In this document: piece after piece, positions 43,689 to 46,199 of the stretch
How positions within the stretch are numbered: the first letter of the stretch is position 1
How the letters are laid out: each line of letters starts with the position of its first letter
NCBI GenBank assembly: GCA_963720755.1
Contig: CAVRGP010000011.1
Span: 448,001-512,000 of the forward strand
Direction of reading: 5' to 3'
Origin: an uncultured Chloroflexia bacterium
GTDB taxonomy: Bacteria > Chloroflexota > Limnocylindria > Limnocylindrales > CSP1-4
Length of the DNA: 64,000 nucleotides
Notes under the pieces: generated by a model
Seen by the model: the letters and a program-made list of their open reading frames with translations, nothing else
Database searches by the model: none
What the model was told of the DNA's origin: nothing
Translations under genes and position numbers: made by a program

Positions 43689-43780
43689 GGAGAGGTCGCA
43701 TAGAGGTCTAGTGCAGCGGTTTGCTAAACCGCCATGTGGGGTAACCTGCATCGAGGGTTCGAATCCCTCCCTCTCCGCCA
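43689..43780 (+). tRNA. tRNA-Ser(GCT)
   Basis: GCGGT-TTGCTAA-ACCGC anticodon arm, long variable arm, CCA. Confidence 0.96.
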
Positions 43781-43849
43781 TATTCACGCTCAGATCGAGC
43801 CCTGACGGCCCTCCTTCGGGATCCCCGCGTCGTCGTCCGGCGGACCACT

Positions 43850-43872
43850 TGACGCCCAATCTGACCACCAAT
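43850..43872 (+). repeat. putative integrase arm-type site pair (left)
   Basis: TGACGCCCAATC-TGACCACCAAT; 16 bp identical to 45920-45935. Confidence 0.65.
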
Positions 43873-43977
43873 AGGCCGTCGCGCCGCATCGCGGGCAGTC
43901 GGCCCGTGGCGACTCTGGCCGGGGGACGAGGGCCATATCGAGGCGGCGCTCCTGTCGATCCCGGGAGCGCGTCTGAC

Positions 43978-44306
43978 GTGAAGCCGATCCTCGTCGTCCG
44001 GATCCCCGAGGTCGGCGAGGTCCGGTGGATCCGGTCGGCTGTCGGACCTTCCGTCCGGCTCCGGGATCGGCGAACCGGACCTTCGCGTCGATCCGGGCGA
44101 TCGAACGGGCGATGATCGACCGCTGCCGACGGGAAGCCTCCCCGAAGGAGCAGATCGAGGCCCTCCTCGCCGCGTTCCCGGGCTCGTCCGTCGGGGTCCT
44201 GACCGACGACTTCTCCGAAGCTCCGAAGCCGACGTATGCCGGCCGCTGGCAGAGCCGATGGGGCGCCACGCGCCGGCGAGTCCCTACGAGCCGATGGCGC
44301 GGGTGA
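43978..44306 (+). pseudogene. frameshifted small hypothetical gene in island
   Basis: VKPILVVRIPEVGEVRW continues in another frame near 44028 as DPVGCRTF...LLAAFPGS...SEAPKPTYAGRWQSRWG. Confidence 0.45.
44214..44282 (+). repeat. direct repeat copy 1 (69 bp)
   Basis: Matches 44740-44823 except two substitutions and a 15-bp indel. Confidence 0.9.
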
Positions 44307-44694
44307 CGCCGTAGCCGATCAGAGCCACCATCAGGAGCAGCGCGCCGAGGAGCGGGATCATCACCATCAGGATGGTCGAATTCAGGACGTCTCGATCGAG
44401 CCGTTCGATCTCTTCACTGTCCGCACCCGCCGCCGCTCGTCGAGCGCGCGCACGAGTCCGCCAGACGGCCGCAATGACAATGGCGACGACGAACACGAGG
44501 GCGGGAATGTTCACGAGCGGGTTCGAGCCCACATTCGTGGCCAGTGAGATTACAGCGAAGCCCCCACCAATGATGATCGGAGCCGCCATCAGTGCCGCCA
44601 GTCGCTGGTCGCCGCGCATGACACCAACGAACCCTACGATAAACAACGCCATCGATACGACGACGATGGGGACGAAGAGATCCTTGCCGTCCAT
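44284..44694 (-). CDS. small 4-TM membrane protein between direct repeats
   Basis: MDGKDLFVPIVVVSM..., hydrophobic, visibly more A/T-rich codons; own promoter-like TTGTCT-17-CACACT 7 nt before ATG. Confidence 0.7.
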   Translation of the reverse strand: MDGKDLFVPIVVVSMALFIVGFVGVMRGDQRLAALMAAPIIIGGGFAVISLATNVGSNPLVNIPALVFVVAIVIAAVWRTRARARRAAAGADSEEIERLDRDVLNSTILMVMIPLLGALLLMVALIGYGVTRAIGS

Positions 44695-44739
44695 GGTCGG
44701 CAGTGTGCCCTCGCGGACGTCAAGAGACAAGGTCGGTCG

Positions 44740-44823
44740 TCCGAAGCTCCGAAGCCGACGTATGACGGCCGCTGGCAGAGCCGATGGGGCGGGCAGCTAC
44801 CAAGCGCCACGCGCCGGTGAGTC
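44740..44823 (+). repeat. direct repeat copy 2 (84 bp)
   Basis: TCCGAAGCTCCGAAGCCGACGTATGACGGCCGCTGGCAGAGCCGATGGGG...CGCCACGCGCCGGTGAGTC. Confidence 0.9.
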
Positions 44824-44978
44824 GCAGCTAACCGGGGCCCTGTAGGCTGTCAGGGGCGATCCTCGCCGGACGGACCGGCGGGCGTCAGGAGGGAGTCGAT
44901 CCGGTCGACCCGACGGGCCTCATCACGGCCCTGATCGGCGTCGTCGACCGGGCCTTCGGGCGGCGACAGCGGATCCGC

Positions 44979-45278
44979 ATGCGCGCCGACACGGCGGAGC
45001 GGATGCTCGCGTCGTTCTACCCGTACGACGACGCCTCGACGCTGATCACCCGCTACGGGCTGATCCTCGTCTACAACGGCGGCCCGGGGCGGGTGACGAT
45101 CAATGAGGCCGGGTGGGAGGCGAAGGATGGGAGCCGTGTCGAGGCGTTCGTCCGACACGAGAGGACGATCGAACCGGGGAGCCCGGAGTTCGAGGCGACC
45201 GGCGACGCGACGGCGATCGTGAAGGCGCACGACGAACACGGCGGGCTCGTCCGTATGTACGTCCCTCCTCGCGGGTGA
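44979..45278 (+). CDS. hypothetical protein (frame extends upstream to about 44895 without a start codon)
   Basis: 99-aa ORF with typical codon bias; upstream in-frame hydrophobic segment LITALIGVV after a GGAGG. Confidence 0.5.
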   Translation: MRADTAERMLASFYPYDDASTLITRYGLILVYNGGPGRVTINEAGWEAKDGSRVEAFVRHERTIEPGSPEFEATGDATAIVKAHDEHGGLVRMYVPPRG

Positions 45279-45366
45279 CGAGAAGCCGCGCCGTCGAGAT
45301 CTCCCGGGCGACTGGATCGAGAAGGTCCGGGCCCTAGCCGAGAAGGACCGCCGACGGCGACGGTAG

Positions 45367-45882
45367 CTAGTCGTCGAGTTCCTTCATCGCCTCGTCGGGC
45401 GTGCCGATCGACAGGCGGACCCCGAAGCTCCCGCGATCGCCTCCGCCTCGATCCCACCCGCCGCTGACACTCGCCCGACAGGCCGCGACCTTCCCGTCCG
45501 CCGCAAGCCGGTCGATCACCGGCCGGTAGGCGACGGCGTTCTCCCGGGACAGGTAGCCGATCGTCGCGCCGTCACCGTTCGGTGCGACAAGGAGGACTCG
45601 GACGGCGTTCACGTCATAGGGGTTCGACGGCTCTAGTAGGAGGATCGCCGTGTGATCTCGGATCTTCGGCCCGTCGATCGTGCGCCCTCCCGCGAGCCGC
45701 TCGAGGGAGCCCTGATAGTGCGACTCGCCGACGACGTCGACCATCTTCGGGGTCGGTTCGAACAGGACCGCCGGGAGGCTAGTCGAGAAGCTCGCCGAGC
45801 TATCCGGCCATGACGTGATCGGGCCGGGCGGAGGCCACGACACTTGCGGAGTTCCACCGAGAAGTCGCTTCAGGAAGCCCAT
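45367..45882 (-). CDS. stand-alone HIRAN-domain protein
   Basis: VDVVGESHYQ, EPSNPYDVNAVRV, IGYLSRE. Confidence 0.8.
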   Translation of the reverse strand: MGFLKRLLGGTPQVSWPPPGPITSWPDSSASFSTSLPAVLFEPTPKMVDVVGESHYQGSLERLAGGRTIDGPKIRDHTAILLLEPSNPYDVNAVRVLLVAPNGDGATIGYLSRENAVAYRPVIDRLAADGKVAACRASVSGGWDRGGGDRGSFGVRLSIGTPDEAMKELDD

Positions 45883-45919
45883 GCCGCCCCTCCGTGCCCA
45901 TGAGCGAGAGCGTCCGCCC

Positions 45920-45942
45920 TGACGCCCAATCTGACGCCCGAA
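45920..45942 (+). repeat. putative integrase arm-type site pair (right)
   Basis: TGACGCCCAATC-TGACGCCCGAA, about 105 bp before attR. Confidence 0.65.
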
Positions 45943-46046
45943 CCGGCGAACGTCAACGGACAGGAGCGGACGGATAGCGGCCCGGAAGCCCGTCGATTAC
46001 ACTCCGGCGGACGTTGGAGGACGCGGAAAGACGGGCGGTAGCCGAG

Positions 46047-46106
46047 TTGCTAAACCGCCATGTGGGGTAACCTGCATCGAGGGTTCGAATCCCTCCCTCT
46101 CCGCCA
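46047..46106 (+). repeat. attR: duplicated 3' half of tRNA-Ser(GCT)
   Basis: TTGCTAAACCGCC...CTCTCCGCCA, identical to 43721-43780; no 5' half. Confidence 0.93.
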
Positions 46107-46123: not shown

Positions 46124-46199
46124 GCGCCCGTAGCTCAGTGGATAGAGCGTTAGGTTGCGGACCTAAAGGTCGTGGGTTCGAGTCCCGCCGGGCGCGCCA
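46124..46199 (+). tRNA. tRNA-Arg(GCG)
   Basis: GCGCCCG/CGGGCGC acceptor, TTAGG-TTGCGGA-CCTAA anticodon arm (GCG at 46157-46159), GGATA D-loop, CCA. Confidence 0.94.

What the first reader, a model, noticed from the sequence alone, without database searches (positions are those of the whole stretch)
46124..46199. tRNA-Arg with GCG anticodon in the slot normally held by tRNA-Arg(ACG)
Seen: a well-formed Arg tRNA with loop TT-GCG-GA lies directly after the tRNA-Ser(GCT) 3' end (the attR copy). Known: Ser(GCT)-Arg(ACG) is a widespread bacterial tRNA pair, most bacteria decode CGU/CGC/CGA with ICG made by TadA, and G34 is the archaeal or minority-bacterial solution. Inference: an A34-to-G switch made inosine unnecessary, matching the inactivated TadA 6.8 kb away. 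CGA codons are used in these genes, so a tRNA-Arg(TCG) is predicted elsewhere in the genome.
Basis: partly seen in the sequence, partly recalled or inferred. Interest (0 to 1): 0.72.

Follow-up and report, generated by a model that had tools for sequence, protein, structure and literature searches.

The report
Inosine-free arginine decoding with fossil TadA
The arginine tRNA with a GCG anticodon is real but is the normal state for this whole bacterial phylum; the less ordinary part is that the now-unneeded tRNA-editing enzyme next door has lost its catalytic residue yet has been kept as a conserved protein.

Summary
The tRNA-Arg(GCG) at 46124-46199 is confirmed (ARAGORN; Infernal 71.6 bits). 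It is not a recent local A34-to-G switch. The same gene follows tRNA-Ser(GCT) in 28 of 29 relatives' loci. G34 is also the common state across the phylum, which relatives' record titles name as Chloroflexota: 75 sampled genomes show GCG and 5 show ACG.

The assembly (93.6% complete) has no tRNA-Arg(ACG) and no active TadA. It also lacks the predicted tRNA-Arg(TCG), but 5 of 5 near-complete congeners have it, and CGA is used at 11.8 per 1000 codons.

The TadA homologue at 52966-53406 (HAV in place of HAE) sits at the same locus as active TadA in two sister families. Catalytic Glu is absent in all 133 unique clade sequences (V 130, L 2, T 1). The zinc ligands are kept, but several canonical TadA residues are lost. 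It evolves under purifying selection (dN/dS about 0.18-0.20), and the genome-reduced sister family has lost it (0 of 19 genomes).

Within the class, ACG goes with HAE and GCG goes with HAV or no TadA.

Verdict: known kind of decoding (I34-free CGN box). The new variant is a conserved, free-standing pseudo-TadA of unknown role.

The parts
46124..46199 (+). tRNA-Arg, anticodon GCG (G34 at 46157); loop TTGCGGA, G37 after G36
   Evidence: ARAGORN; Infernal 71.6 bits; sequence; identical or nearly identical in relatives
43689..43780 (+). tRNA-Ser(GCT), the usual immediate upstream neighbour of tRNA-Arg(GCG) in relatives; its 3' 60 nt (43721-43780) is the left copy of the direct repeat
   Evidence: ARAGORN; repeat D1; adjacency in 28 of 29 relatives' loci
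43781..46046 (.). about 2.3 kb inserted between the two tRNA genes in this genome only; no integrase found; one ORF (45367-45882, -) has a HIRAN domain
   Evidence: relatives have 7-46 nt between the two tRNAs
46047..46106 (+). right copy (attR-like) of the tRNA-Ser(GCT) 3' 60 nt, 100% identical
   Evidence: the repeat finder D1
52966..53406 (+). TadA-derived pseudo-deaminase (146 aa): H52-A53-V54 in place of HAE, P81-C82-x-x-C85 kept
   Evidence: clade-wide conservation
53455..53540 (+). tRNA-Ser(CGA), 49 nt downstream of the TadA-like gene; the same neighbour follows active TadA in sister families
53695..53782 (+). tRNA-Ser(GGA), the next member of the conserved tadA-Ser-Ser arrangement

Best explanation
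This organism, and its whole lineage, decodes the four CGN arginine codons without inosine. tRNA-Arg(GCG) reads CGC and, by G-U wobble, CGU. tRNA-Arg(CCG) reads CGG. tRNA-Arg(UCG) reads CGA; it is seen in congeners and is presumably in the unassembled part of this genome. This replaces the usual bacterial pair ICG + CCG, so A34 deamination by TadA is not needed.

The gene at 52966-53406 is the positional orthologue of tadA (just upstream of tRNA-Ser(CGA)-tRNA-Ser(GGA)). On the stem of three families it lost the catalytic Glu (HAE to HAV) and several residues that are near-invariant in canonical TadA. It kept the fold, the zinc ligands and the active-site shell, and it has since been held under purifying selection. 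It is therefore a pseudo-enzyme with some selected, non-essential role, and the genome-reduced sister family has deleted it.

Shown: the tRNA set, the motif states, the co-variation, the selection and the locus orthology. Inferred: the wobble assignments, the loss of deaminase activity, and that an ancestor of these families once had an A34 tRNA-Arg served by an active TadA.
For: tRNA set: ARAGORN on the whole genome gives Arg = GCG, TCT and CCT, and no ACG. A CCG gene lies at C8:99837-99965. Infernal finds 47 tRNAs and no extra Arg gene.

Relatives: 30 of 30 loci carry GCG, and 28 of 29 relatives' loci have Ser(GCT) directly upstream. In the class sample all printed rows are GCG for f1 (44 of 61 genomes matched), f2 (5 of 5) and f4 (46 of 52). 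ACG appears only in f3 (7 of 21 matched). In the phylum sample, 75 genomes show GCG and 5 show ACG, of 131 (my count of the printed rows).

TadA: Pfam and PDB matches to TadA (E 7e-27), with HAV aligned to HAE. The AF2 model has pLDDT 96.5 and TM 0.95 to B. subtilis and S. aureus TadA. The only other CDA-fold protein is RibD.

Motif census: f1 80 of 80 HAV (retrieval biased towards HAV); in the unbiased f1 sample the 30 best loci give 28 HAV, 1 HAT and 1 HAE; f4 28 HAV + 2 HAL of 30; f3 20 of 20 best hits HAE. Among 133 unique clade sequences, position 54 is V 130, L 2, T 1, and 39 of 146 positions are at least 98% invariant, including DPTAHA and EPCxMC.

Selection: dN/dS is 0.18 (f1), 0.20 (f4) and 0.28 for active f3 TadA.

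Locus orthology: HAE TadA in f5 and f3 lies just upstream of tRNA-Ser(CGA).

Outside the class: 5 of 5 ACG genomes have full-length HAE TadA (E about 1e-36). None of 10 GCG genomes has a hit better than 6e-19.

f2: 0 of 19 genomes have the domain.

TCG tRNA: present in 5 of 5 congeners.

CGA usage: 9455 codons, 11.8 per 1000.
Against: tRNA-Arg(TCG) is not in this assembly by ARAGORN, blastn or Infernal, and its flanks in congeners are not syntenic. Its presence here is therefore inferred. The assembly also lacks at least two CAT tRNAs, so it is incomplete for tRNAs.

The direction of change is unresolved. This GCG tRNA is closer to GCG tRNAs of other classes (about 6 differences in 77 nt) than to the ACG tRNAs of its own class, and the TadA tree does not place f3 next to the HAV clade (weakly resolved).

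Exceptions exist. G214 (f4) and G431 (f1) carry an HAE gene as well as the HAV gene, G431's on a 1.5-kb contig. G183 (f3) shows GCG and no TadA hit. One ACG-type row appears in G272, which is 63% complete. These may be bin contamination.

The pattern census misses 41 of 131 genomes. dS is near saturation under strong GC3 bias, so dN/dS is rough. Nothing shows what the HAV protein does, or that it is expressed.
Confidence: 0.8

Rival explanations
1. G34 is ancestral for most of the phylum. On this reading, TadA together with an ACG tRNA was gained, perhaps horizontally, by a few lineages including an ancestor of this class. Families f1/f2/f4 later dropped the ACG gene again and kept the vertically inherited GCG gene. 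The HAV gene would then be the relic of that episode, rather than of an in-place A34-to-G34 point mutation.
For: GCG is seen in 61 genomes outside the class and ACG in 5, of 117. This GCG tRNA is about 92% identical to GCG tRNAs of families f8 and f18 in other classes, but very unlike f3's ACG tRNAs. In f3, ACG sits beside TCG and not after Ser(GCT). f3 TadA does not group with the HAV clade.
Against: A published ancestral reconstruction places TadA at the bacterial root with frequent later losses (PMC6063277, passages read). HAE TadA (f3, f5) and HAV TadA (f1, f4) share one locus upstream of tRNA-Ser(CGA), which fits vertical descent within the class. An ACG tRNA (G297) and a GCG tRNA (G350) share identical anticodon stems, which shows that in-place switches do occur.
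Confidence: 0.3
2. The HAV protein is still an enzyme. Another residue, for example Asp41, which replaces the canonical Asn, would take over proton shuttling, and the protein would deaminate a new substrate.
For: The zinc ligands and the DPTAHA / EPCxMC shell are 100% conserved. Asp41 is found in 125 of 133 sequences, where 99% of canonical TadAs have Asn. Purifying selection is strong.
Against: Position 54 tolerates V, L and T, as expected for a dead site. The same Glu-to-Val change defines the non-catalytic ADAT3 (PMC7713142, passages read).
Confidence: 0.07
3. A recent, genome-specific A34-to-G34 mutation, with tadA now decaying as a pseudogene.
For: HAV replaces HAE and no ACG tRNA is present.
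Against: The same G34 tRNA and the same HAV motif occur across two orders and more than 40 genera. No stops were seen in the 139 full-length copies examined, and dN/dS is about 0.18.
Confidence: 0.03
4. Artefact: a base-call or assembly error at 46157, or a contaminant contig.
For: The genome is a draft of 15 contigs with 2.7% contamination. Another Arg tRNA locus (C8) looks garbled.
Against: The contig is 968 kb. The gene is 100% identical in 11 other genomes. No variant is listed at 46157 in 4 runs.
Confidence: 0.01

Closest known systems
Mollicutes of the Pneumoniae group (e.g. Mycoplasma gallisepticum): 'life without TadA' (Yokobori et al. 2013, PMC3711424; abstract and passages read)
   Same: [quoted passage not shown]
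   Different: There tadA is deleted, tRNA-Arg(CCG) is also lost, and the genomes are tiny and AT-rich. Here the genome is 3 Mb at 68% GC, CCG is kept, and the tadA gene survives as a conserved protein without its catalytic Glu.
Bacterial groups reported to carry tRNA-Arg(GCG) instead of ACG: Thermotogae and Spirochaetes (PMC8007984, passages) and the Candidate Phyla Radiation (PMC8629427, passages)
   Same: The GCG + UCG + CCG set for the CGN box, a lineage-wide trait.
   Different: Those passages do not name Chloroflexota, and none mentions a retained dead TadA. Rafels-Ybern et al. 2019, which they cite for 'deeply branching bacteria' without inosine, is not held in the library, so I could not check whether it lists this phylum.
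Eukaryotic ADAT3/Tad3, the pseudo-catalytic subunit of the tRNA A34 deaminase (PMC7713142, passages)
   Same: A TadA-derived domain in which the HxE glutamate is replaced by Val while the zinc site is kept, and which is conserved by selection.
   Different: ADAT3 works as a heterodimer with catalytic ADAT2 and has an extra N-terminal tRNA-binding domain. Here the protein is a single 146-aa domain. No catalytic TadA-like partner is present in the genome, and no A34 tRNA exists to act on.

Membership tests
tRNA-Arg (CGY-reading isoacceptor with G34) | Cloverleaf scored as tRNA by two independent programs | tested here: met
   ARAGORN; Infernal RF00005 71.6 bits against a gathering score of 29
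tRNA-Arg (CGY-reading isoacceptor with G34) | Anticodon GCG, with C35 and G36, and A20 in the D-loop (arginine identity elements; the rule is recalled and comes from no call) | tested here: met
   Sequence: D-loop AGTGGATA, with A in the GGA-TA position; loop TTGCGGA
tRNA-Arg (CGY-reading isoacceptor with G34) | Charged with arginine; G34 unmodified and reading only CGC/CGU | not testable with these tools
   Needs tRNA sequencing or mass spectrometry
TadA, tRNA adenosine(34) deaminase (NCBIfam NF008113) | CDA fold with His/Cys/Cys zinc ligands | tested here: met
   H52, C82 and C85 aligned to TadA; AF2 pLDDT 96.5, TM 0.95 and rmsd 1.0-1.3 A to 7cph and 2b3j
TadA, tRNA adenosine(34) deaminase (NCBIfam NF008113) | Catalytic Glu of the H-A-E motif | tested here: not met
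   Val54; none of 133 unique clade sequences has Glu
TadA, tRNA adenosine(34) deaminase (NCBIfam NF008113) | Score above the curated equivalog cut-off (150 bits) | tested here: not met
   113.4 bits. Five other HAV proteins score 105-121. Two full-length HAE TadAs of the same phylum score 168 and 172. Three f3/f5 HAE proteins, trimmed to the aligned part, score 130-139
TadA, tRNA adenosine(34) deaminase (NCBIfam NF008113) | Residues near-invariant in canonical TadA outside the zinc site (Asn41, Arg93, His123, the C-terminal Phe-Phe pair, Gly26, Tyr76) | tested here: not met
   Changed to Asp, Asp/other, Arg/other, absent/other, Ala and Phe in the HAV clade, against 86-99% conservation in 107 HAE proteins. 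That these residues contact RNA is recalled, not tested
TadA, tRNA adenosine(34) deaminase (NCBIfam NF008113) | A substrate tRNA-Arg(ACG) encoded in the genome | tested here: not met
   None found by ARAGORN, pattern, blastn or Infernal in the 93.6%-complete assembly
ADAT3-like pseudo-deaminase | Glu-to-Val in HxE with the zinc site kept | tested here: met
   the ADAT3 description comes from PMC7713142
ADAT3-like pseudo-deaminase | A catalytic ADAT2/TadA-like partner encoded in the genome | tested here: not met
   PF14437 gives 1 hit, the HAV gene itself. PF00383 gives 2 hits, the HAV gene and RibD
ADAT3-like pseudo-deaminase | An extra N-terminal tRNA-binding domain | tested here: not met
   146 aa, a single domain spanning residues 2-142 of TadA structures
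Inosine-free CGN decoding set (GCG + UCG + CCG, no ACG, no TadA) | GCG present and ACG absent | tested here: met
Inosine-free CGN decoding set (GCG + UCG + CCG, no ACG, no TadA) | tRNA-Arg(UCG) present | tested here: inconclusive
   Not in this assembly; present in 5 of 5 near-complete congeners
Inosine-free CGN decoding set (GCG + UCG + CCG, no ACG, no TadA) | tRNA-Arg(CCG) present | tested here: met
   C8:99837-99965 scores 56.4 bits by Infernal, but the locus carries a partial tandem duplication and ARAGORN does not call it
Inosine-free CGN decoding set (GCG + UCG + CCG, no ACG, no TadA) | tadA gene absent | tested here: not met
   A TadA-derived gene is retained. It is absent only in family f2 (0 of 19 genomes) and in the 10 GCG genomes of other classes that were tested

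The most novel reading that the evidence does not exclude
The HAV protein is a free-standing bacterial pseudo-TadA that has taken on a new role still tied to arginine decoding. For example, it might bind the anticodon loop of tRNA-Arg(GCG), or another RNA or nucleotide, through its intact zinc pocket without editing it. That would make it a convergent counterpart of eukaryotic ADAT3, but without a catalytic partner.
Probability: 0.15. Interest if true: 0.7.

Novelty: new variant of a known kind. Interest (0 to 1): 0.5.

Why it matters
Loss of wobble inosine in bacteria is known, but in the described cases tadA simply disappears. Here a large free-living, GC-rich clade (two orders, more than 40 genera of soil and freshwater Chloroflexota) shows a different state. 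The substrate tRNA is gone and the catalytic residue is gone, yet the protein is held by selection as tightly as the active enzyme in a sister family. In the genome-reduced sister family the gene is deleted.

This gives a natural series for asking how an essential tRNA-modification enzyme is retired and what else a TadA fold can do. It is also a practical warning: automatic annotation will call these genes 'tRNA adenosine deaminase' and may infer I34 decoding where none can occur.

Tried and rejected
- **Back-translated motif pattern.** The question was answered from Pfam and protein-id searches plus loci.
The origin of P0063 (the HAE sister of the HAV clade) and of P0046 (a separate HAV protein, 43% identical) stays unknown.
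- **Synteny around tRNA-Arg(TCG).** The 8-kb flanks in three congeners have no counterpart in this genome. I cannot tell an assembly gap from a true loss.
- **CGA usage.** f1 10.4, f4 10.7 and f3 7.1 per 1000 codons, from small samples. No clear signal.
- **Net charge and pI.** The HAV clade has a median charge of -6 and pI 5.2; HAE proteins have -3 and 6.1. This is a small shift and not decisive for loss of RNA binding.
- **DNA search with an f3 ACG tRNA** in 5 genomes found nothing at E 1e-8. The tRNA-Arg of f5 (G189) was not found by patterns either.
- **Sequencing runs.** No RNA holder is listed, so nothing can be said about expression.
- **Earlier findings of this scan.** Nothing was returned.
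- **Literature.** The searches were TadA + tRNAArg + GCG + inosine, tadA + Chloroflexi, Limnocylindria + tRNA, 'expansion of inosine', 'wobbling forth', TadA + catalytically inactive/pseudoenzyme and I34 + Chloroflexi. They gave no statement on tRNA-Arg(GCG) in Chloroflexota or on a conserved dead bacterial TadA. Supplements were not opened and may bear on this.
- **Complex prediction** (homodimer) was not run.

Full report
**Observation.** ARAGORN finds seven tRNA genes in the window, including tRNA-Arg(GCG) at 46124-46199 on the + strand. Infernal's tRNA model scores it 71.6 bits. The sequence shows the loop TTGCGGA with G34 at 46157. The gene begins 17 nt after a perfect 60-nt copy (46047-46106) of the 3' part of tRNA-Ser(GCT) (43721-43780), with the two copies 2326 nt apart. 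So a 2.3-kb insertion at tRNA-Ser(GCT) separates two tRNA genes that are otherwise neighbours. The insertion holds no recognisable integrase, and one ORF has a HIRAN domain.

**The genome.** The window lies on a 968-kb contig of a 3.01-Mb, 15-contig, 68% GC draft that is 93.6% complete with 2.7% contamination. Record titles of the closest relatives of its TadA-like protein name them Chloroflexota, many as 'Candidatus Limnocylindrales' or 'Limnocylindria'.
- ARAGORN over the whole genome gives 52 calls. Four over-long ones look like coding sequence.
- The Arg genes are GCG, TCT and CCT.
- A CCG gene lies at C8:99837-99965 in a garbled, partly duplicated form that ARAGORN skips but Infernal scores at 56.4 bits.
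- No ACG and no TCG gene is found by ARAGORN, a pattern, blastn or Infernal.
- Only one CAT tRNA is present, so the assembly lacks at least two essential tRNAs. Absences must be read with that in mind.

**CGA and the predicted TCG tRNA.** In 2014 long, high-GC3 ORFs, CGA is used 9455 times: 11.8 per 1000 codons and 13.9% of Arg codons, more than CGT. A decoder must therefore exist. A strict pattern found tRNA-Arg(TCG) in only a minority of 81 congeners, but that pattern was too narrow. A T-arm-anchored pattern found the same TCG anticodon arm in 5 of 5 near-complete congeners, and ARAGORN confirmed tRNA-Arg(TCG) in the three fetched. Its flanks are not conserved and have no counterpart in this genome.

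**How far the G34 tRNA reaches.**
- *Close relatives.* The 76-nt gene is 95-100% identical in most of 36 congeners and 99% identical in a sister family (f2) with genomes of about 1.1 Mb. All 30 fetched loci carry GCG, and 28 of 29 relatives' loci have tRNA-Ser(GCT) 7-46 nt upstream; the 29th starts at a contig end.
- *Order.* A pattern with N at position 34 returned only GCG, CCG and TCG among the 150 rows printed, of 270.
- *Class.* With R at position 34, every printed row is GCG for f1 (44 of 61 genomes matched), f2 (5 of 5) and f4, a family of another order (46 of 52). ACG appears only in f3 (7 of 21 matched); f5 gave no match.
- *Phylum.* By my count of the printed rows, ignoring rows without a complementary stem, 75 genomes show GCG and 5 show ACG, of 131. 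Outside the class the figures are 61 and 5, of 117.

These counts include genomes that the tool marks as unpublished: G231 and G249, and G317. Leaving them out changes nothing. G34 is thus the usual state of this phylum, not a peculiarity of this genome.

**The TadA-like gene.** ORF 52966-53406 (146 aa) matches the deaminase Pfam families and solved TadA structures (E 7e-27). H52-A53-V54 aligns to H-A-E, and the PCxxC motif is intact. The only other CDA-fold protein in the genome is RibD. An AlphaFold model is confident (pLDDT 96.5) and superposes on B. subtilis and S. aureus TadA at TM 0.95 and rmsd 1.0-1.3 A. Against NCBIfam's TadA equivalog (cut-off 150 bits):
- this protein scores 113 bits;
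- five other HAV proteins score 105-121;
- two full-length HAE TadAs of the phylum score 168 and 172;
- three f3/f5 HAE proteins, trimmed to the aligned part, score 130-139.

**Co-variation of the motif with the tRNA.**

| Group | tRNA-Arg for CGY | TadA state |
|---|---|---|
| f1 | GCG | 80 of 80 loci HAV (retrieval patterns included the HAV motif, so biased). In the unbiased Pfam search 94 of 100 genomes have a hit, and the 30 best loci give 28 HAV, 1 HAT, 1 HAE |
| f4 | GCG | 28 HAV + 2 HAL of 30 |
| f3 | ACG | 20 of 20 best hits HAE |
| f5 (one genome) | not found | HAE |
| f2 | GCG | 0 of 19 genomes have the domain; the stretch between Arg(GCG) and Ser(CGA) holds unrelated genes |
| Other classes, ACG genomes | ACG | 5 of 5 have full-length HAE TadA, E about 1e-36 |
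| Other classes, GCG genomes | GCG | 0 of 10 have a hit better than 6e-19 |

The single HAE locus in the f1 sample is on a 1.5-kb contig of G431, a genome that also has the HAV gene. So ACG goes with active TadA, and GCG goes with either no TadA or the HAV form.

Exceptions that I could not resolve may be bin contamination:
- G214 and G431 carry both forms.
- G183 (f3) shows GCG and no TadA hit.
- One ACG-type row appears in G272.

**The HAV gene is not decaying.**
- Among 139 full-length copies (133 unique), position 54 is V 130, L 2, T 1, and never Glu.
- 39 of 146 positions are at least 98% invariant, including DPTAHA and EPCxMC.
- Pairwise Nei-Gojobori dN/dS is 0.18 in f1 (3158 pairs) and 0.20 in f4 (435 pairs), against 0.28 for the active enzyme in f3 (190 pairs). 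dS is high under strong GC3 bias, so these values are rough.
- Residues that are 86-100% conserved in 107 HAE proteins have changed in the clade: Val23, Gly26, Asn41 (to Asp), Glu54, Tyr76 (to Phe), Arg93, His123 and the C-terminal Phe-Phe pair. From memory, several of these contact the anticodon loop in the S. aureus complex; I did not test that.
- A search of 1.84 billion representatives found 11526 relatives at E 1e-3. In the top 150, every protein at least 50% identical is HAV-type, and the HAE proteins lie below about 48%.
- In a quick maximum-likelihood tree, the 45 HAV/HAL rows form one group (SH-aLRT 93) on a long stem (0.49), with one divergent HAE protein (P0063) as sister. A separate HAV protein (P0046) lies elsewhere.
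- HAE TadA in f5 and f3 and HAV TadA in f1 and f4 all lie just upstream of tRNA-Ser(CGA). The HAV gene is therefore the positional orthologue of tadA.

**Direction of change.** The relic implies that an ancestor of f1/f2/f4 had a working TadA and hence an A34 tRNA. Several observations complicate this:
- This GCG tRNA is closer to GCG tRNAs of other classes than to f3's ACG tRNAs.
- In f3, tRNA-Ser(GCT) stands alone (13 of 13 loci) and ACG sits beside TCG.
- An ACG and a GCG tRNA from two other families share identical anticodon stems, so in-place switches do happen.

I cannot decide between an in-place point change and replacement by a vertically kept GCG gene.

**Comparison with what is known.**
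- Mollicutes that lost tadA replaced ACG by GCG and gained UCG (PMC3711424).
- Thermotogae and Spirochaetes (PMC8007984) and the Candidate Phyla Radiation (PMC8629427) are reported to use GCG.
- TadA is reconstructed at the bacterial root with frequent later losses (PMC6063277).
- Eukaryotic ADAT3 is a TadA-derived domain with Val for the catalytic Glu and an intact zinc site, but it works with catalytic ADAT2 (PMC7713142).

For each of these papers I read only the passages returned by searching within it, and no supplements. My literature searches found no statement on Chloroflexota using tRNA-Arg(GCG) or on a conserved dead bacterial TadA. Rafels-Ybern et al. 2019, which may cover the former, is not held in the library.

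**Verdict.** The tRNA itself is ordinary for its phylum and belongs to a known minority decoding scheme. The variant worth noting is the retained, selected and catalytically disabled TadA orthologue, whose role is unknown.

Noticed in passing
G000:C8:99837-99965 (outside the window): The tRNA-Arg(CCG) locus is garbled. The first 57 nt of the tRNA are followed by a second start of the same tRNA that lacks 4 nt in the anticodon arm. ARAGORN does not call it, and Infernal reads it as one tRNA with an insertion. It could be an assembly artefact from mixed strains or a real partial tandem duplication.
   Followed up: partly
window 43781-46046: A 2.3-kb insertion at the 3' half of tRNA-Ser(GCT) is bounded by a perfect 60-nt direct repeat. 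It has no integrase, contains internal 52-nt and 31-nt direct repeats about 530 nt apart, and has one HIRAN-domain ORF (45367-45882, -). It is probably a degraded integrative element. Depth in the soil-run contigs is lower inside it than at its edges.
   Followed up: partly
whole genome G000: Only one tRNA with anticodon CAT is assembled, so the initiator and/or tRNA-Ile2 genes are missing from the draft. Four over-long ARAGORN calls (93-99 nt) look like coding sequence and are probably false.
   Followed up: no
G000:C11:75899-75995 (outside the window): A tRNA-Sec (anticodon TCA) gene is present, so the organism probably makes selenoproteins.
   Followed up: no
L245-L253 (second deaminase hits in several family-f1 genomes): Some relatives, but not this genome, carry a separate deaminase with H-G-E and S-P-C-D-M-C motifs. 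It resembles the yeast-type cytosine deaminases among the PDB hits and is unrelated to the HAV gene.
   Followed up: partly
P0046, P0066, P0069, P0125: Other TadA-like proteins in the public library also lack the catalytic Glu (HAV, HAP, HAA, HPI) and lie outside this clade. Dead TadA-like genes may therefore have arisen more than once. Their organisms could not be looked up.
   Followed up: no
L148, L149, L152, L158 (family f4): In f4 the HAV gene lies only about 1 kb downstream of Ser(GCT)-Arg(GCG) and just before Ser(CGA)-Ser(GGA). The enzyme gene and its former substrate's slot were probably once in a single tRNA cluster. In this genome 6.8 kb of other genes lie between them.
   Followed up: partly
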